This document shows positions 3,301 through 39,250 of a DNA stretch of 64,000 nucleotides, in pieces. The notes below the pieces were generated by a model. The model was given only the letters and a program-made list of their open reading frames with translations. It ran no database searches and was not told where the DNA came from. Both the position numbers and the translations under genes were made by a program. Source of the DNA: a virus. Its lineage: Duplodnaviria; Caudoviricetes. The DNA lies in the IMG/VR virus record IMGVR_UViG_3300037722_000889, positions 1 through 64,000 of that record. One strand, given 5' to 3'. Within the stretch, counting starts at the first letter, position 1, and every line of letters begins with the position of its first letter.

Positions 3301-3885
3301 GGCGAGGCTAACCAGGTGCAGCGGGACGATGGCCTTTACCTCGTCGCCCATGACCAGGGTGTCATCGGCGTTGGCTTCGCCCTTCAGCAGGACGGTGCAC
3401 TCGTCGGTGGTCAGCTGCAGCAAGTCGGCGTCCACGGTGTAGACCACCTTCTGCCCGGGCAGCTGCTGCGTCAGGTAGGCGATCACGTCGTCCGCTTCCA
3501 CGCCGACCACCCGGCACTGGGTCACGCCGATGGCGGACAGGAAGTGGTTAACGTAGCCCTTCAGCTCGTCGTCGCGGGCCTGACATTCCGGCAGCTTCTC
3601 ACGGGCGTGCCGGTTCTTCTTGTAGCCCGGGTACAGGGCCTTGCGGAAATCGTTACCTCCGTCCCACACGGCGATGATGCGGCGTGGGGCAATGAACTCG
3701 GTAATGGGCAGGAAGTAGCGGGACAGGAACACGTCGAAGCCGTACTTCGCGGTGTTCTCGCGCGCGGTAACTTTCGTGCCGTCCTTGTTGGTCTTCTCAA
3801 CCAGCATGGCGTCGGGGTCGGCGCCGGAATACAGGGAGTGGGTCATCAGACCCTTGATGTCCAAAATGACATAGCCTTCGTTCAT
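337..3885 (-). CDS. polA: Family A DNA polymerase with N-terminal 5'-3' exonuclease and 3'-5' exonuclease domains
   Basis: 5'-exo motifs (YKKNR, EADDVIA, GDASDEYPGVKGIGP); proofreading motifs DYE, NASFE, YGCDD; polymerase motifs TVTRRPSGSSPNLLQI, DFSGQELR, KAVNFLIIYG, NAPIQAGAA, VYDEL. Confidence 0.95.
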   Translation of the reverse strand: MNEGYVILDIKGLMTHSLYSGADPDAMLVEKTNKDGTKVTARENTAKYGFDVFLSRYFLPITEFIAPRRIIAVWDGGNDFRKALYPGYKKNRHAREKLPECQARDDELKGYVNHFLSAIGVTQCRVVGVEADDVIAYLTQQLPGQKVVYTVDADLLQLTTDECTVLLKGEANADDTLVMGDEVKAIVPLHLVSLAKSLLGDASDEYPGVKGIGPAKWNILVEEYGYDGLAELEQCVKTLNFKVIEDILAGALKDSKGKYLNKGEAVLGAIMESRNDWILMYAVAQLHPELSYGVSDGKQVKIEWYKRLLQANKVIAILEATGSMGHLHHIAEYLPTQTLVTQDNFRTVLQHYKDHLPECPYVAMDYESVDVLQHAPFQEAASKGNYVDVLSQSITGASFTYGANLQHTIYLSLDHADTANLEEEQLLWAIKRAEANGRLIVQNASFEVALTDTNLEHTLATPIDTMIMASYVNEDDSAHLKDMSLQHLRYKQTTYKEVLEQAGVQNMRQLTGEQILGYGCDDALVTASLFDLFHIILQLEGTWDFVDENEFGFVHNTYQAFEAGVNVDLDRMKQLEQEDAVVIEEGMKFIRGRLAEWCPTEDEDAIKELYEDLAEFERAKMRADKKSEGEIESKLLRLKDSLTAATKYQPLIEQVKPVNFAPTVKQLTEVAQRVGIDQPITSVAVSKLTGWLAEAGEFSGQAAQFTSLLAEAANHLKKREGPEYAALEDFCVQVLSVGRPTEKIGTELNFDSPNQMQVMLYGMLGLPIRVRSKVQRGSSRDKLEFRGSPGTDDKAVEMAIAEDAAEGTELRKFLETFRKVKSALTRGKMYYRPYPLWVHPRDGMIHGQIKNCGTVTRRPSGSSPNLLQISKKDGSEGIRSCILPRYPDHVIISPDFSGQELRIMASESGDPTMLDAYIGPVKKDIHSVTAAGLAPVVLERKFPGVFRMFTYGQLGMDYGEFMAGRKADNEQVSKALNFVRNKVAKAVNFLIIYGGGPTTLARNLGVPVDTAKAFMNQVFLTYPRILPWQAESIEFARTHGYVQDAWGNRRHAPAGLWSRDGNVRSRAERQLVNAPIQAGAASLLKVVMRQCRDTHLFEDTGAILLMPVYDELACSVPASTALEFSRRLVGIMNMTPPGHIVPMVAELSIGRNNWASMVELGASPTDEEILAVVNGGALEEAA

Positions 3886-3941
3886 ATCTCTTACCCTCGA
3901 TGGTAAAGAGAGCGGGGCGCGGACGCCCCGCTCAAGGTCAC

Positions 3942-4775
3942 TTACGCAGCCATTTCACGCGGGCCGGCGTAGGAGAAGGACCACGGACGGAACGGCTGAG
4001 CCGCCGTGGTGATCTTCGCCCCGACCGACACGCGGGTGATGTACTGATCCTGCCGCAGACCGTGCTGCATCTTCTGCAGGGCGATGTAGCCGCCCAGGCG
4101 GGAGATGGAGGTGGGGGGCACGGACAGCATGGCCACCGCACCGTCGTGGTCGCCGCCGACGATCTGCACCAGCACCTCGACGTACTTCTTCCACACCGGG
4201 GTCCAGCTCTGCACCTTCCACTCCGTGAGGATGTCCTCGATGGGCTTGCCACCGCCGGTCAGCGGCGGCTCGTTCGGAGCGAAGTTGGGGTGGTAGGTGG
4301 TGTAGAAGAAATCTGCCTTCGGGTCGTTGTCCTGCAGACCGTTCTTGCAGATGTACTTCGCGGTGGACCGCATTACGATGCAGTTGAACTCTTTCGGGTC
4401 CAGGTTGCCCAGGTCGTTGCTGGAGAACTCGCCGTCGGTACCCAACGTGATGATGGGGAACGCACCGAAGCCGAGATCCAGGCCGTCCATGCCGTCGTCC
4501 GCCATGCTCTGCACGACCATGGCCGCGCTGCCCTTGCCGGGGCCGGTGGTCATGGGCACGCTGGCGTGGCCGGACAGCTGCACCGGCATCTGCGCCGTCG
4601 TCCCAATGGGGCCTTCTCCCTGCAGCACTACGTCCACTTCCGGCTCGGCCCCTACGGGCTCGGCCTGGGCCGCTGCGGCCGGTTCCGGCGGGATGCCGGC
4701 CTCGTCCAGATCGAACGCGGGACGCTCGGTGGCGGGGACTTCCTGGGTTACTACGTTACCTTTTTTAAGGGCCAT
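3942..4775 (-). CDS. Putative ssDNA-binding or replication accessory protein
   Basis: 277 aa with an acidic, low-complexity N-terminus and a beta-rich aromatic C-terminal domain; lies between helicase and polA; strong SD. Function inferred from context. Confidence 0.45.
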   Translation of the reverse strand: MALKKGNVVTQEVPATERPAFDLDEAGIPPEPAAAAQAEPVGAEPEVDVVLQGEGPIGTTAQMPVQLSGHASVPMTTGPGKGSAAMVVQSMADDGMDGLDLGFGAFPIITLGTDGEFSSNDLGNLDPKEFNCIVMRSTAKYICKNGLQDNDPKADFFYTTYHPNFAPNEPPLTGGGKPIEDILTEWKVQSWTPVWKKYVEVLVQIVGGDHDGAVAMLSVPPTSISRLGGYIALQKMQHGLRQDQYITRVSVGAKITTAAQPFRPWSFSYAGPREMAA

Positions 4776-4799
4776 CTCAATTACCTCACATCTTCATTG

Positions 4800-5080
4800 A
4801 CGTTTCACTGACATTTCGCCTTGCGGCGATCTGCACGTACCAGCCTCGTTGCCCGGTACCCTGCAGTCTTGCTGGCTGGCCGGCTGTGCCGACCTGCCGA
4901 AATTTGTTGCCGCATCACCGCCAGGCTGGAGGAGTTGCGCACCCCTAGTATTCAGATCACTGTACGGCTGCGGCTGCCGGTGTTTTTCCATGCGAGGCAC
5001 GACGCAAGTTCCCCTGCGTACTTCCGGCTAATCCTCGGCCGACATTATCCGCGCTGTGCGCGGCCCCCATCGGCAAGGGT
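4800..5080 (-). ncRNA. Candidate structured RNA or structured 5' leader
   Basis: At least 7 stems in about 280 nt. GNRA loops (GCAA, GGAA) and G-U pairs all read correctly on the minus strand. See findings. Confidence 0.55.
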
Positions 5081-5088
5081 GCTTTTAC

Positions 5089-6699
5089 TTACGCTGCCTT
5101 ACCCATCAGCTCATCAAGCATGGACACCCGGTCCCGGGTGATGATCTTGGCGTACCCTTCCTTCTCCAGCATCGAGGCGGTCAGGGTGGGCGCTACCGTG
5201 CCCAGGGCCTTGATGATGTAGAACATGACCTGCTTCTTCTGCCCCGGCCGGTGCACCCGTTCCGACGACTGCTTGAACGTACCCGGCACCGACAGAGGCT
5301 CCACGAAGATCACGTAGGCGCACACCTCCTGGAAGTTGAGCCCGACTCCTCCAGACAGCGGCTGTGCTATCAGCATCCTGCAGGTGTCGTCGTGCTTGAA
5401 CTTATCCGCCTGGGCAGAGACGCTACCTTTCGTATCGCTGTACAGCACTGCCGGGTTGTACTGCTCGTAGTACTCGGACAGGAACTTCGTGGTCCGCTTG
5501 TAGTGGGCGAACAGGATGACCTTCTCGTCCTTCAGGCCGATATTTTCCAGCAAGGTGTCCACCATCGTGATGATGTTGTTTTCCTTGATGTCGGTCAGGC
5601 CGAAGTGCTGCGGCGTGGTGACGATCTGTAGGCACTTCTGCCGCAGGCTCTGCTGCTGCACCGCGCTGATAATCTCGCCGTCCACTTCCAGGAACCGCTC
5701 CCGCACCAGCTTGTCGTACAGCGCCTTGTGCTTCGGGCTGAGCGTGACCGGGACCTCGCGGATGATCGGCGTCTTCATGTTCTTGAACACGTCGTTCTTC
5801 AGCACCCGGCGTGCCGAGGCGTACAGGTTCACGGTCAGCGTGTCCATGTTCTGGTACCCGATCAGCACGGCCTCCCGGCCCGAGCCCATGTAGACACAAT
5901 GCAGGCGCTCGAACGACTTCTTCGTGCCGTACTGGTACGGGCGCAGCAGCTTGATGATCCCGTAGGCGTCCCCCGGCGTGTTGTGCAGCGGGGTCCCGGT
6001 CAGCAGCAGAAGCCCAGCCTTGGACTCCGACTTGCGGGTTGGCATCTCGCCGGCCAGGTACGCCACGGCCTTGTGCATAGTGGAGGAGGGGTTCTTCAGT
6101 GCCTGTGCCTCGTCAGAAATGATCAGGTTGTAACCCTTCTCCCGCAGCACGCGGTACGTCTCCGGCCCGGTGCGGACCTTGGTCGGTCTGGCTTTCCCCT
6201 GCACCGCGCCCAGCACCGGCGGCACCTCCTGCTTGACCTCCTTCAGCTCGGACGGGTAGTTGATGAACATCTGGTAGGTCATCAGGATCAGGTCCGGCCA
6301 GCCGGTCTCGTCCCACTGCTGGAACAGCGCGAGCCGTTCCTTCGGGCCTTGATCCAGGATGTGCGCCGTGAAGTGGTCCTGCCAGCCGAGGAAGGTGTCG
6401 TCCAGGGCGTCCATGAACTGCTTCAACAGCACCGGCGGCATCAGGGCCACGACCTTGTTGCCGTAGCCCATGCAGTACAACGCGTAGGCCTGGGCCGGCA
6501 GGGTCTTCCCGCAGCCGGGTTCGTCCAGCAGACCGAACCGGGTGTTGGCCAGCGTCTGGTTCAGGCCGGTGATCTGGTGCTTGAACGGTGGCACCCGGTC
6601 GTCGGCGATGACGATGTGACCTGCCTGCGGCGGCACTTCCAGCGCCCCCGCCTCTCGCAGCAGGGTCTCCAGCGTGTAGGTTCCTGGGATAATATCCAC
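5089..6699 (-). CDS. SNF2-like superfamily 2 helicase
   Basis: DEPGCGKT (motif I), IISDEAQ (II), LTGTP (III), SGGVGLNF (V), QSSERVHRPGQ (VI). Confidence 0.92.
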   Translation of the reverse strand: MDIIPGTYTLETLLREAGALEVPPQAGHIVIADDRVPPFKHQITGLNQTLANTRFGLLDEPGCGKTLPAQAYALYCMGYGNKVVALMPPVLLKQFMDALDDTFLGWQDHFTAHILDQGPKERLALFQQWDETGWPDLILMTYQMFINYPSELKEVKQEVPPVLGAVQGKARPTKVRTGPETYRVLREKGYNLIISDEAQALKNPSSTMHKAVAYLAGEMPTRKSESKAGLLLLTGTPLHNTPGDAYGIIKLLRPYQYGTKKSFERLHCVYMGSGREAVLIGYQNMDTLTVNLYASARRVLKNDVFKNMKTPIIREVPVTLSPKHKALYDKLVRERFLEVDGEIISAVQQQSLRQKCLQIVTTPQHFGLTDIKENNIITMVDTLLENIGLKDEKVILFAHYKRTTKFLSEYYEQYNPAVLYSDTKGSVSAQADKFKHDDTCRMLIAQPLSGGVGLNFQEVCAYVIFVEPLSVPGTFKQSSERVHRPGQKKQVMFYIIKALGTVAPTLTASMLEKEGYAKIITRDRVSMLDELMGKAA

Positions 6700-15221: not shown

Positions 15222-15578
15222 CTAGGCGGTCATCTCCAGCATGTAGTCGTACACGGTGGTAACCAGGAACTGCTTGGTCCTGTAGTCGTAGAGCAGGGTG
15301 GGTTCTCCGGCATCGCGTCGGCACACGTACGCAGCCAGGGGCTGCTCTCGGCCAGGTGAGTAGGCCTCGATGACGCCACTGCCGTCCAGGTATTGGTTAA
15401 TTGCGTTCAGAACTTTGGTCGTTTGAACCGGCAGGTTCAGGCCTTGCAGCGCCCATACTTCCACGCCGTGCACGTTGTCTGGATTGATGCGCCCCTCGAT
15501 GAGCCCAAGTATCCGATCTGCTGTTGACGGAGCTACGCCGAGCCCGCTACGAATTGTCCTCATTGACAAGTTCGACAT
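15222..15578 (-). CDS. Hypothetical protein
   Basis: 118-aa ORF with GGAG SD. Confidence 0.7.
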   Translation of the reverse strand: MSNLSMRTIRSGLGVAPSTADRILGLIEGRINPDNVHGVEVWALQGLNLPVQTTKVLNAINQYLDGSGVIEAYSPGREQPLAAYVCRRDAGEPTLLYDYRTKQFLVTTVYDYMLEMTA

Positions 15579-16140
15579 GCTTCATTTCTCCCCATGGGAA
15601 ACTATAGTCGTAGAACAAACACATCTGCGGATCCTCTTGACCGGCAGGTTTATTGAAGTGCTGCAGTATCACGTACCACTCTCTTCCTGCCTCTTCGACA
15701 GAGGCTCGGCAATCGGCGTGAGATAGTTCCACGCCTTTGGCGCAGGCGATGGCCTCGTACTTGGTACCGTATTTGACGATGGTAACGGGGTCGTCTACGT
15801 CAGAGAACTGATCAGGGCAGTCCAGCTCAGCTGACTCCAACACATCAGACGGGCGTAACGAGTAATACGCAACGATGCCGGCCTTGGCCATGTTGCGGTA
15901 CAGTTTTGTGAACGAGGAGGGTCCCTCGCTCAGCTTGGCCTCTACCATCTTCCTGAATGTCTCTTCCCGAAACACCGGCAGGCCGGACTTGGATACCACG
16001 CCCAGTCGGACCTGCTGACCGATCACTCGCACCGGCATGATGGCGATGTCCGTACTAACCATGATTGCCTCACCCACTTTTCGGGTATTGACGATCATGC
16101 CGCCGTACTCCTCTTTGAGTCTGCGTTCAGTGTCTTTCAC
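15547..16140 (-). CDS. csrA: CsrA/RsmA-like domain fused to an unknown C-terminal domain
   Basis: MIVNTRKVGEAIMVSTDIAIMPVRVIGQQVRLGVVSKSGLPVFREETFRKM aligns by eye with CsrA (MLILTRRVGE..IGD..V....GNQVRIG..APKEV.VHREEIY). Confidence 0.75.
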   Translation of the reverse strand: MKDTERRLKEEYGGMIVNTRKVGEAIMVSTDIAIMPVRVIGQQVRLGVVSKSGLPVFREETFRKMVEAKLSEGPSSFTKLYRNMAKAGIVAYYSLRPSDVLESAELDCPDQFSDVDDPVTIVKYGTKYEAIACAKGVELSHADCRASVEEAGREWYVILQHFNKPAGQEDPQMCLFYDYSFPWGEMKHVELVNEDNS

Positions 16141-35771: not shown

Positions 35772-35932
35772 ATCGTTTCTCCTCATTGAGAAACTCTGAC
35801 ATGTCAGAGTTTCAGGCGTTGATCCAGTGCCGTTGGAAGCGGCGGATATACCGCTTCTGCTGCGGCCAGGGGACCGGCAGGAGGGTGCAGAGGGCGCACT
35901 GGTTCCTGCCGGTGGTAATGAACCGCAGCGGG

Positions 35933-38549: not shown

Positions 38550-39250
38550 ACCAGGTGCCGCGGATGGCACGCGCCGGGGTCGAAGTCCGGCTCCGCCCGT
38601 ACGTCGGTGAGAGGTACGGTGGTGAGGTCCCTGCAGGGGACAATATGATTGGTCTCCCGGTATATTGTTGACCGGGTACCACGCGGTTATCCAAGCGCAT
38701 GGGCTCGCCATGCTAGTAGGCATTTTCGGTGGACCGCTCCACCGTCAGGGCATCCTAGTGTCTCGCACGCCGTGGTCACCACGTGAAGGGAAAAATTCAG
38801 TGGCGACGGTAGGCGATTCAGATGCGTAGCATGCAGGAGGACGCACCGCCCCTTTCGAGGGGTGTGGCCTATGTGAGTATAAGCTGGCATGGGGTGCCCA
38901 GCGACGGTGGCCCGATTCTGTGCTCGCCGTTCGACGAGTCTCGGTTTCGGATCGCTACTCTCCTGCTATTACCTGACCACCGGTTTTATTGGTACCAGGA
39001 AACCGGCAAAGGAACTGGAGTCTTGACGGCGCTCCACTCTGGTCAAGTGGTCCCGGGGTATCATTCCGGCCACTTTTCCGCATTACCTCCCGTCGATATG
39101 GGACGGGTACCGGCTACCGCGTGCCACGGTGCCCGAAGGGCCACAACCCTTCGCTTCCTTGACTTCCCTTTGTAGTCCGCACCAGATGGACGGCTCCTGC
39201 CTGCACGCCCCCACGTCGATGCTACCGTGACCACGTGTCCATCTGAAAAC
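38550..39250 (+). ncRNA. Candidate large structured RNA
   Basis: At least 14 stems of 5-13 bp, with a UUCG loop and G-U pairs on the plus strand; no convincing ORF. Confidence 0.5.

What the first reader, a model, noticed from the sequence alone, without database searches (positions are those of the whole stretch)
4800..5080. GNRA-capped multi-hairpin RNA between the helicase and the putative SSB gene
Seen on the minus strand: GCCGAT/GTCGGC enclosing CCGCGC-ACA-GCGCGG; ACGCAGG-GGAA-CTTGCGT; AGGGGT/ACTCCT; GGTCGGC-ACA-GCCGGCC; CTGCA..GTACCGG/CTGGTAC..TGCAG; TCGCC-GCAA-GGCGA. There are two GNRA tetraloops and a repeated GC-ACA-GC loop, and all wobbles are G-U on the transcribed strand. Known: T4 gene 32 autoregulates through a structured leader. 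Inference: a novel cis-regulatory leader or an independent ncRNA inside the replication operon.
Basis: partly seen in the sequence, partly recalled or inferred. Interest (0 to 1): 0.7.

Follow-up and report, generated by a model that had tools for sequence, protein, structure and literature searches.

The report
Proteo-phage-1 pseudoknotted RNA module
The gap between the helicase gene and the likely DNA-binding-protein gene of this phage holds a real folded RNA whose front third is a catalogued but functionally unknown phage RNA motif (Rfam Proteo-phage-1), here with an extra hairpin and a tail of lineage-specific hairpins.

Summary
All six hairpins are in the sequence. Only the minus strand folds better than shuffles (z -3.41, against -0.35 for the plus strand).

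The 5' third, 4972-5079(-), is not novel. It matches Rfam RF03044 Proteo-phage-1 at 53.1 bits (cut-off 42). This scan has met the same family on other DNA about 25 times.

I show that the core is two tandem pseudoknots (P0/P1 and P2/loop-tail). Covariation supports them in 30 diverse members, and the window keeps every pair. No other IMG/VR contig has one there.

The 3' hairpins (4816-4974) have no relatives, so covariation cannot be tested (z -2.21). Every family member, however, carries variable hairpins behind the core.

The closest relative has the motif at the same site. More distant syntenic relatives have 65-218-nt spacers without it, so it is an inserted accessory module. Other members precede lysis or recombination genes, which argues against an SSB-specific leader.

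The 68-aa ORF is not conserved. Function is unknown. My best guess is a co-transcribed, protein-binding structured RNA; a put-like antitermination or anti-Rho role is the main rival.

The parts
4972..5079 (-). Proteo-phage-1 core (Rfam RF03044), full model 1-82 with a 22-nt insertion
   Evidence: cmscan gives 53.1 bits against a gathering score of 42, E 2e-8. It is the only family over its cut-off in the window and the only copy in the 78.7-kb genome.
5065..5079 (-). Pseudoknot P0: CCCU (5076-5079) pairs with GGGG (5065-5068). P0 spans the 5' strand of P1.
   Evidence: Across 30 members 114 of 120 cells are paired, against 73.4 +/- 4.8 in shuffles (0 of 2000 shuffles reach it). The window has 4 of 4 pairs.
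5038..5074 (-). P1 (GCCGAU/GUCGGC) enclosing the P1a hairpin CCGCGC-ACA-GCGCGG (5049-5063)
   Evidence: All 5 P1 pairs show changes on both sides and 97.3% of cells are paired. Sequence read.
4993..5037 (-). P2: CGAGG (5033-5037) pairs with CCUCG (4993-4997). Its loop holds the conserved AUUAGCCGGAAGU.
   Evidence: 4 of 5 pairs show changes on both sides and 94.4% of cells are paired.
5002..5019 (-). Lineage-specific inserted hairpin ACGCAGG-GGAA-CUUGCGU in the P2 loop (GNRA cap)
   Evidence: It is the 22-nt insert relative to the model. No other IMG/VR contig has an insert of this size between the two conserved blocks.
4976..5028 (-). Pseudoknot PK: loop GCCGG (5024-5028) pairs with tail CCGGC (4976-4980). 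An A-rich linker GGAAAAACA lies at 4981-4989.
   Evidence: 100% of cells are paired and 3 pairs show changes on both sides: GACGG/CCGUC, GCAGG/CCUGC, GUCGU/GCGAC. RNAalifold picks this helix on its own.
4909..4974 (-). P3: a long irregular hairpin that starts in the last bases of the conserved GCAGCC. It contains AGGGGU-GCGCA-ACUCCU (4930-4946).
   Evidence: It is in the MFE fold. A hairpin starts at this position in every family member read, with class-specific sequences.
4878..4894 (-). P4 hairpin GGUCGGC-ACA-GCCGGCC
   Evidence: It is in the MFE fold. No homologue was found, so covariation could not be tested.
4831..4866 (-). P5 hairpin CUGCAG-GGUACCGG...CUGGUAC-GUGCAG
   Evidence: It is in the MFE fold. 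By eye it resembles a hairpin in the relatives' short spacers, but local alignment is not above shuffles.
4816..4829 (-). P6 hairpin UCGCC-GCAA-GGCGA (GNRA cap)
   Evidence: It is in the MFE fold. GNRA-capped hairpins also follow the core in other members, with stems that differ from class to class by eye.
4773..4815 (-). AU-richer leader with the Shine-Dalgarno GAGG and the ATG (4773-4775) of the 277-aa gene
   Evidence: Sequence read. A similar caAUGAaG..AGGAGaagu..AUG stretch occurs in relatives that lack the motif.
5089..6699 (-). Upstream gene: SNF2-family helicase (536 aa). Its stop codon lies 10 nt before the RNA core.
   Evidence: Pfam SNF2-rel_dom 7e-16 and Helicase_C; PHROG 62.
3942..4775 (-). 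Downstream gene: 277-aa protein, a probable gp32-like single-stranded DNA-binding protein
   Evidence: No Pfam or PHROG hit. The AF2 C-terminal domain aligns to the RB69 and T4 gp32 cores with Z 6.9 and 5.6. Foldseek probability is 0.90 to 1gpc, and some BFVD hits are annotated SSBs.

Best explanation
The 313-nt spacer between the SNF2 helicase gene and the 277-aa (probably gp32-like SSB) gene is transcribed with the replication operon on the minus strand. It carries an accessory RNA module of the Proteo-phage-1 family.

Shown:
- The 5' 108 nt fold into the family's core, which consists of two tandem H-type pseudoknots. In the first, P0 crosses P1/P1a. In the second, the P2 loop sequence GCCGG pairs with CCGGC in the conserved tail, across an A-rich linker.
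- This copy has an extra GNRA-capped hairpin inserted at a tolerated point in the P2 loop.
- As in every other member read, the core is followed by lineage-specific hairpins (P3, P4, and perhaps P5 and P6) before the next gene's ribosome-binding site.

Inferred:
- The module was inserted into a spacer that is short in related phages.
- It works as RNA with host factors or on its own, because no protein gene travels with it.
- It is not a gene-specific leader.

My preferred mechanism, held with low confidence: the compact core is a stable protein-binding or processing handle. It lets the phage express untranslated, fast-changing RNA 'cargo' hairpins from inside an operon.
For: Family membership:
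- The Rfam hit scores 53.1 bits against a gathering score of 42, E 2e-8, over the full model.

Structure:
- On 30 diverse members, 92.8% of cells pair against 75.1% in shuffles. 14 of 18 pairs change on both sides, and 0 of 500 shuffles reach this. Slid controls give 29-46%.
- P0 has 114 of 120 cells paired against 73.4 in shuffles.
- The loop-tail helix is kept through three independent double changes.
- The window keeps every pair.

RNA rather than DNA or protein:
- Only the minus strand folds better than shuffles.
- The 68-aa ORF has no conserved homologue.

Variable 3' extension is the family rule.

Insertion:
- The closest relative (helicase 63% identical) has the motif 4 nt after its helicase stop, with changed but still pairing P0, P1 and P1a.
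- Five more distant syntenic relatives have 65-218-nt spacers. The four whose DNA could be read lack the motif.

Not gene-specific:
- In Pseudomonas phage phiAH14a it lies in the late leader before the lysis genes.
- In Pseudomonas phage PS-1 it lies in a 440-nt gap of the early-left operon.

No partner gene: no protein family is shared between this phage and the +/-3.5-kb surroundings of the other members.
Against: - The function is not shown by anything here. No expression data could be obtained.
- The 3' hairpins have no homologues. They rest on thermodynamics alone (z -2.21, 7 of 200 shuffles as good), so some may be incidental. P5 may belong to the ancestral leader of the downstream gene.
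- No promoter or terminator was found near the element, so the ends of the RNA are unknown.
- The 'platform plus cargo' idea is an inference from the family's anatomy. Earlier notes of this scan suggested it too, and they are not independent evidence.
Confidence: 0.55

Rival explanations
1. A put-like, RNA-only processive antitermination or anti-Rho element. On this reading the nascent pseudoknotted core binds the transcribing RNA polymerase, so that it can cross the long untranslated stretch and any downstream terminators.
For: - The core always sits at the 5' end of a long untranslated segment, on the operon strand.
- In 25 of 87 non-redundant loci it lies 3-20 nt after an intrinsic terminator of a lambdoid-style late promoter region. 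In 15 of those 25 a second terminator follows before the lysis genes.
- P1 and P2 are separated by one nucleotide, as are the two stems of HK022 put.
- No partner protein gene travels with it.
Against: - The Rfam model finds nothing in the HK022 immunity region, which by the published map (PMC9378689) should hold putL and putR, even at E <= 10.
- In the window no promoter or terminator lies near it, and relatives do without it.
- In the late class a Q-position gene and promoter precede it, which would already explain read-through.
- Most loci (class A) have no terminators nearby.
Confidence: 0.2
2. A gene-specific translational operator of the downstream SSB gene, as in T4 gene 32. On this reading the pseudoknot nucleates cooperative binding of the 277-aa protein to its own leader.
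For: - The downstream protein has a gp32-like OB-fold domain. VIA-align gives Z 6.9 to RB69 gp32 and 5.6 to T4 gp32; Foldseek probability is 0.90.
- A pseudoknotted RNA lies upstream of it, and a 40-nt AU-richer stretch precedes the start codon.
Against: - Four syntenic relatives with the same ~280-aa gene lack the motif.
- The motif precedes unrelated genes in more than 100 other phages.
- About 150 nt of stable hairpins separate the pseudoknots from the RBS region.
- The fold match of the protein is only middling.
Confidence: 0.08
3. Only the Rfam core is functional. On this reading the 3' hairpins P3-P6 are incidental folding of a GC-rich spacer or ordinary mRNA-stabilising hairpins, and not part of one RNA.
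For: - The 3' part has no homologue in about 2.3 Mb of related loci.
- Its z-score is modest: -2.21, with 7 of 200 shuffles as good.
Against: - Every member read has structured sequence directly after the core, and P3 starts inside the conserved GCAGCC.
- The strand asymmetry holds for the 3' part alone.
- Two GNRA caps suggest tertiary contacts.
Confidence: 0.12
4. An RNA that titrates CsrA/RsmA, linked to the CsrA-domain protein encoded by the same phage.
For: - The phage encodes a CsrA-domain protein at 15547-16140(-), Pfam PF02599, 36 bits against a cut-off of 27.
- The core contains several GGA triplets: GGAUAA, GGAUUAG, GGGGAAC and AUGGAAAA.
Against: - The GG of the conserved GGAU is paired in P2 and covaries to CC in one member.
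- The only GGA in a hairpin loop lies in a compact GNRA tetraloop.
- From base composition I estimate about 7 GGA triplets by chance in 313 nt, so there is no sign of enrichment.
- Co-occurrence of the motif with phage CsrA genes was not tested.
Confidence: 0.04

Closest known systems
Rfam RF03044, Proteo-phage-1 RNA (type 'Gene; sRNA'). Attributed from my own knowledge to the motif survey of Weinberg et al. 2017, PMC5737381. The motif's name is not in that paper's main text and the supplements are not held.
   Same: The full-length match is above the gathering score. It has the same P1/P1a and P2 helices, the same conserved loop (GGAUNAGCCGG..AGU) and the same tail (AAAACNCCGGCAGCC). It lies in a phage and is oriented with the flanking genes.
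   Different: - It has a 22-nt GNRA hairpin inserted in the P2 loop, which no other IMG/VR contig has.
- It sits in the replication operon of a 79-kb phage with a replication module of primase, SNF2 helicase and family-A DNA polymerase. The other members studied here are 35-60-kb temperate lambdoid-like phages.
- The functional RNA seems much longer than the 82-nt model.
- The two pseudoknots shown here are not visible in the structure line printed by cmscan.
HK022 put RNAs (putL, putR): RNA-only processive antiterminators (PMC9378689)
   Same: Both are cis-encoded phage RNAs of about 70-110 nt. Both have two stem-loops separated by one nucleotide and non-canonical tertiary structure. Both lie on the operon strand and need no dedicated phage protein.
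   Different: There is no detectable sequence or structure homology. put lies near its promoter and upstream of terminators, whereas in the window there is neither. The tandem-pseudoknot topology is not that described for put.
T4 gene 32 mRNA leader pseudoknot (translational autoregulation by the SSB gp32); established knowledge, not re-read here
   Same: A pseudoknotted RNA lies upstream of a gene for a gp32-like SSB in a phage replication module.
   Different: The motif is not tied to SSB genes in relatives or in the wider family. Long stable hairpins separate it from the RBS.
Modular Proteo-phage-1-type RNAs noted earlier in this scan (e1-5358964, e1-3292798, e1-5360401, e1-3642064, e1-2902156)
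   Same: All have a conserved pseudoknotted core at the 5' end, followed by variable, exchangeable hairpin modules in untranslated gaps of phage operons.
   Different: The window's cargo hairpins match none of the modules in the loci I fetched. No tRNA-like module is present.

Membership tests
Rfam RF03044 Proteo-phage-1 | Covariance-model score at or above the curated gathering score (42 bits) | tested here: met
   53.1 bits, E 2e-8, model positions 1-82 of 82.
Rfam RF03044 Proteo-phage-1 | P1 hairpin with internal loops and inner helix, then one nucleotide, then P2 hairpin | tested here: met
   In the window P1 is CCGAU/GUCGG, P1a is CCGCGC/GCGCGG and P2 is CGAGG/CCUCG. These helices covary across 30 members.
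Rfam RF03044 Proteo-phage-1 | Conserved P2 loop GGAUNAGCCGG..AGU and 3' tail AAAACNCCGGCAGCC | tested here: met
   Both blocks are present: GGAUUAGCCGGAAGU and GAAAAACACCGGCAGCC.
Rfam RF03044 Proteo-phage-1 | Pseudoknots (5' flank with the P1 internal loop; P2 loop with the tail). These features were derived here, not taken from Rfam. | tested here: met
   The window has 4 of 4 pairs in P0 and 5 of 5 in PK.
Rfam RF03044 Proteo-phage-1 | Occurs in phages or prophages of Proteobacteria | tested here: inconclusive
   The record is an IMG/VR virus of 78.7 kb whose host is unknown. Other members lie in Pseudomonas, Xanthomonas, Aeromonas and related genomes. The best structural matches of the 277-aa protein are from Pseudomonas phages.
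HK022 put antiterminator RNA | Sequence and structure similarity to putL or putR | tested here: not met
   RF03044 gives no match at E <= 10 in the HK022 immunity region, which by the published map should hold putL and putR.
HK022 put antiterminator RNA | Promoter-proximal position, upstream of the terminators it overrides | tested here: not met
   No promoter-like or terminator-like site lies near 3900-5200 on the minus strand. The feature is partly met in the late-class relatives.
HK022 put antiterminator RNA | Binds the RNA polymerase beta' zinc-binding domain and suppresses termination | not testable with these tools
   This needs transcription assays.
T4 gene 32-type translational operator | The element is coupled to the SSB gene across relatives | tested here: not met
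   Four syntenic relatives with the ~280-aa gene lack the motif. Other members precede unrelated genes.
T4 gene 32-type translational operator | The downstream gene encodes a gp32-like SSB | tested here: inconclusive
   VIA-align gives Z 6.9 (RB69 gp32) and 5.6 (T4 gp32) over about 135-140 residues at rmsd about 5 Å. There is no sequence-family hit.
CsrA/RsmA-binding sRNAs (RsmY/RsmZ type) | Several GGA motifs exposed in hairpin loops | tested here: inconclusive
   Read by eye only. One GGA lies in a GNRA tetraloop and one in a single-stranded linker. The conserved GGAU has its GG paired in P2.

The most novel reading that the evidence does not exclude
The Proteo-phage-1 double-pseudoknot core is a portable, protein-independent 'expression platform'. 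On this reading it either makes RNA polymerase resistant to Rho and terminators, or it provides a processing and stability handle. Either way it would let phages carry and swap untranslated RNA cargo (hairpins, tRNA-like modules) inside operons. The window would show it captured by a lytic-type replication operon with its own unique cargo.
Probability: 0.2. Interest if true: 0.8.

Novelty: new member of a known kind. Interest (0 to 1): 0.35.

Why it matters
Proteo-phage-1 is a widespread orphan RNA. It occurs in at least 119 IMG/VR contigs, in many Pseudomonas, Xanthomonas and Aeromonas genomes, and in the cultured Pseudomonas phages phiAH14a and PS-1. The held literature assigns it no function.

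This window adds three things:
- an unusual context: the middle of a replication operon, next to a gp32-like gene, in a 79-kb phage;
- a tolerated insertion point in the fold;
- together with the relatives, evidence that the module is gained and lost as a unit without any protein partner.

The tandem-pseudoknot core and the two cultured phages give concrete handles for experiments on what could be a new class of phage RNA element.

As a single finding it is a new member of a known family, not a discovery of a new kind.

Tried and rejected
- DNA search of the locus against 50,697 phage records found no match. The 277-aa protein and the helicase found no relatives in IMG/VR.
- A long-insert pattern in IMG/VR found nothing. 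In metagenomes 29 stretches matched; nearly all are chance matches inside coding sequence, and only L124 and L125/L141 are real and distant.
- nhmmer of the 3' part against all loci found no hit.
- MAFFT plus RNAalifold on the extended region recovered only the invariant loop-tail helix, because P3 is too variable to align.
- My enforced-closure fold for P3 gave artefactual long-range closures, so I did not use it as evidence.
- Aligning the RBS-proximal leader with the relatives' spacers gave no consensus structure, and local alignment scores were within the shuffles. The by-eye likeness of P5 to their hairpin therefore remains unsupported.
The Rfam model finds no RF03044 match in P22 NC_002371 at E <= 1, and I saw no signature in its late leader.
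- HK022 gave no match.
- Literature searches for the motif name or accession found 0 papers. The supplements of PMC5737381 are not held.
- ARAGORN found no tRNA or tRNA-like gene in the spacer.
- HDV-like, twister and pistol ribozyme topologies were considered. The strand order here is two tandem H-type pseudoknots, not nested ones, and no ribozyme family was reported at E <= 10.

Full report
**Observation**

The window's minus strand between the stop codon of a 536-aa ORF (5089-6699) and the ATG of a 277-aa ORF (3942-4775) is a 313-nt spacer.
- P1/P1a at 5038-5074
- the GGAA-capped hairpin at 5002-5019
- AGGGGU/ACUCCU at 4930-4946
- the ACA-loop hairpin at 4878-4894
- the long hairpin at 4831-4866
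- the GCAA-capped hairpin at 4816-4829

All of them appear in the minimum-free-energy fold of the minus strand. That fold has an energy of -131.1 kcal/mol and z = -3.41, and 0 of 100 shuffles do as well. The plus strand is indistinguishable from shuffles at z = -0.35. The 3' two thirds alone give z = -2.21 on the minus strand and +0.16 on the plus strand.

**What it is**

A scan against Rfam 15 gives one family over its curated threshold in the whole 64-kb window. RF03044, Proteo-phage-1, matches 4972-5079(-) at 53.1 bits (gathering score 42, E 2e-8) over model positions 1-82. It is the only copy in the 78.7-kb virus record.

The remaining hairpins (4816-4971) lie outside the Rfam model.

**Surroundings**

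The flanking genes form a phage replication module:
- primase-like, 924 aa
- SNF2 helicase
- [the RNA]
- the 277-aa protein
- family-A DNA polymerase with 5'-3' exonuclease

Thymidylate synthase and dNMP kinase lie further upstream in the direction of transcription.

The 277-aa protein has no Pfam or PHROG hit. An AlphaFold model built on six homologues has mean pLDDT 62, with the C-terminal domain at about 80. Its best solved-structure matches are the RB69 and T4 gp32 cores:
- VIA-align gives Z 6.9 and 5.6 over about 135-140 residues.
- Foldseek probability is 0.90 to 1gpc.
- Among predicted viral structures it matches uncharacterised Pseudomonas-phage proteins, plus some annotated SSBs.

'Putative SSB' is therefore plausible but not proven.

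**The family elsewhere**

An exact pattern built from the two conserved blocks finds at least 119 IMG/VR contigs, mostly 35-60 kb. It also finds many Pseudomonas, Stutzerimonas, Xanthomonas, Pseudoxanthomonas, Aeromonas, Enterobacterales and betaproteobacterial genomes.

Two cultured phages carry the motif:
- In Pseudomonas phage phiAH14a it lies between the gene after NinG (the lambda Q position) and the lysis and terminase genes. An annotated reverse-strand 'hypothetical protein' lies over it.
- In Pseudomonas phage PS-1 it lies in a 440-nt gap of the early-left operon, in the order repressor, sigma factor, [RNA], HNH, RecT, exonuclease.

In every locus the 82-nt motif is followed by more structured sequence:
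- A hairpin (P3) starts within or right after the conserved GCAGCC and has class-specific sequences.
- GNRA-capped hairpins follow; their stems differ from class to class by eye.
- In one class there are long stems with variable inserts, some of them tRNA-like.
- In another class there are real tRNA genes.

The window's layout of core plus about 200 nt of private hairpins is thus the family rule.

In the 'late' class a promoter-like region and an intrinsic terminator end 3-20 nt before the RNA in 25 of 87 non-redundant loci. In 15 of those 25 a second terminator follows before the lysis genes. The majority class has no terminators nearby.

**Structure of the core**

I aligned 30 diverse members. 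They include hits from a covariance-model search of 151 genomes of the family of a Pseudomonas genome that carries the motif; these hits do not depend on my pattern. Results:
- P1, P1a, P2 and a loop-tail helix (GCCGG in the P2 loop with CCGGC in the tail) are 92.8% paired, against 75.1% in column shuffles.
- 14 of 18 pairs show changes on both sides, and 0 of 500 shuffles reach this.
- Slid registers give only 29-46% pairing.
- The loop-tail pseudoknot is kept through GACGG/CCGUC, GCAGG/CCUGC and GUCGU/GCGAC.
- A second pseudoknot, P0, joins four bases of the 5' flank to the four bases that follow the 5' strand of P1. It is paired in 114 of 120 cells, against 73.4 +/- 4.8 in shuffles (0 of 2000 reach it), with many pair types.

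The core is therefore two tandem H-type pseudoknots joined by one nucleotide, with an A-rich linker in the second. The window keeps every one of these pairs. Its extra hairpin sits in the P2 loop between the pseudoknot strand and the 3' strand of P2, a place where an added helix need not disturb either pseudoknot helix. No other IMG/VR contig has an insert of that size there. A metagenome scan gave only two real, distant long variants among chance matches.

**Relatives of this phage**

Relatives are rare. The 277-aa protein has two homologues among 5.8 billion proteins.

Helicase homologues keep the order primase, helicase, spacer, ~280-aa gene, polymerase.
- The closest one (63% identity, contig L156) has a Proteo-phage-1 match starting 4 nt after its helicase stop. 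The match is cut off by the contig end (38.7 bits, model 1-56). Its P0, P1 and P1a sequences differ from the window's but still pair.
- Relatives at 50-56% helicase identity, and one more distant relative (L122), have spacers of 65, 83, 93, 117 and 218 nt. The four whose DNA could be read have no match.

The module is thus a lineage-specific insertion into a normally short spacer. Its G+C content equals that of the genome.

The 3' part has no detectable homologue in about 2.3 Mb of fetched loci, so covariation in P3-P6 cannot be tested. By eye P5 resembles a hairpin in the relatives' short spacers, and the last ~35 nt before the ATG are similar. Local alignments, however, are not above shuffles.

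**The ORF test**

A phmmer search of 1.84 billion representatives gives one hit, at E 9e-4 to a stretch of a 1754-aa protein. There are no Pfam or PHROG hits. The ORF also overlaps the conserved tail and P3. It is not a gene.

**How it may work**

Nothing here shows function. The held literature does not mention the motif. The facts that bear on function are these:
1. It is always on the operon strand, in long untranslated gaps.
2. The core always comes first and variable hairpins follow.
3. It sits at different operon positions and expression stages in different phages.
4. It is gained and lost without neighbouring genes.
5. No protein family is shared between this phage and the +/-3.5-kb surroundings of other members.
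6. It is a compact double-pseudoknot fold with invariant loop nucleotides, and GNRA caps follow the core.

I read this as a co-transcribed accessory RNA module. On this reading the core is a stable, host-factor-binding or processing handle, and the downstream hairpins are fast-evolving cargo. I put identity as a Proteo-phage-1 member at about 0.9, and this mechanism at about 0.4 given that identity.

The rivals are:
- **A put-like antitermination or anti-Rho element (0.2).** It fits the position ahead of untranslated RNA and the terminators of the late class. Against it: HK022 shows no homology, the window has no promoter or terminator nearby, and relatives do without it.
- **A T4 gene 32-style operator (0.08).** The missing coupling to SSB genes disfavours it.
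- **A CsrA link (0.04).** It is suggested only by the phage's own CsrA-domain gene.

**Relation to earlier notes of this scan**

Twenty-five earlier findings mention RF03044. Several follow-up reports reached the same picture on other DNA: a modular RNA, a core longer than the Rfam entry, and swappable cassettes. I reproduced those points independently on my own loci. I could not reproduce the remark that P22 carries it.

**Verdict**

This is a real RNA element and a new member of a known orphan family, with an unusual insertion and genomic context.

Noticed in passing
window 15547-16140 (-): A 197-aa ORF has a CsrA domain at residues 15-65 (Pfam PF02599, 36 bits against a cut-off of 27) and a long C-terminal extension. 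A phage-encoded CsrA/RsmA-like protein is unusual. I did not test any link to the RNA.
   Followed up: partly
window 3942-4775 (-): The 277-aa protein has a disordered Ala/Pro-rich N-terminal 85 residues and a C-terminal domain whose predicted fold is closest to the T4 and RB69 gp32 cores (Z 5.6-6.9). It has only two close sequence homologues among 5.8 billion proteins, and about six counting syntenic phages.
   Followed up: partly
window 35825-35921 (+): ARAGORN calls a tRNA-Arg (anticodon GCG) that is 97 nt long, which is long for a tRNA-Arg. It lies on the strand opposite to the replication genes.
   Followed up: no
L157 (Pseudomonas phage phiAH14a, NC_074659) 3738-4268 (-): The annotated hypothetical protein gp55 lies on the reverse strand exactly over the Proteo-phage-1 RNA and its extension, between the Q-position gene and the lysis genes. 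It is probably a spurious CDS call.
   Followed up: partly
L007, L024, L069, L115, L117 and other late-class loci: These loci share a lambdoid-style late control region. After the gene in the Q position (PHROG 3373, function unknown) comes an inverted repeat GATGGCA..GCCATC that overlaps a promoter-like site. A small hairpin UUUGCC-UUCG-GGCAAA and an intrinsic terminator follow, and then the RNA. One or more tRNA genes are often next, followed by a second terminator and the lysis genes.
   Followed up: partly
L003, L009, L019, L036, L070, L105 and other class A loci: Behind the core, long conserved stems (GCAUCGGAG...CCGAUGCAGUG) hold inserts that differ completely between otherwise near-identical phages. 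Some inserts have tRNA-like T-arm sequences (GGUUCGAAUCC). Earlier notes of this scan describe the same 'cassettes'.
   Followed up: no
L153 1725-1807, L155 4106-4198: The short helicase-SSB spacers of relatives that lack the motif carry two small hairpins that appear to covary between the two phages. One is GUUCCCC..GGGGA(A/G)C. The other is CGUGCCGG..CCGGUACG against CCGUACC..GGUGCGG. They may form an ancestral leader element of the SSB gene.
   Followed up: partly
window 38550-39250 and 18707-40332: First-stage notes on the same genome list a ~700-nt ORF-free structured segment and a 17-copy palindrome CTGACATGTCAG at gene junctions. The Rfam gathering-threshold scan of the window reported nothing there.
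   Followed up: no
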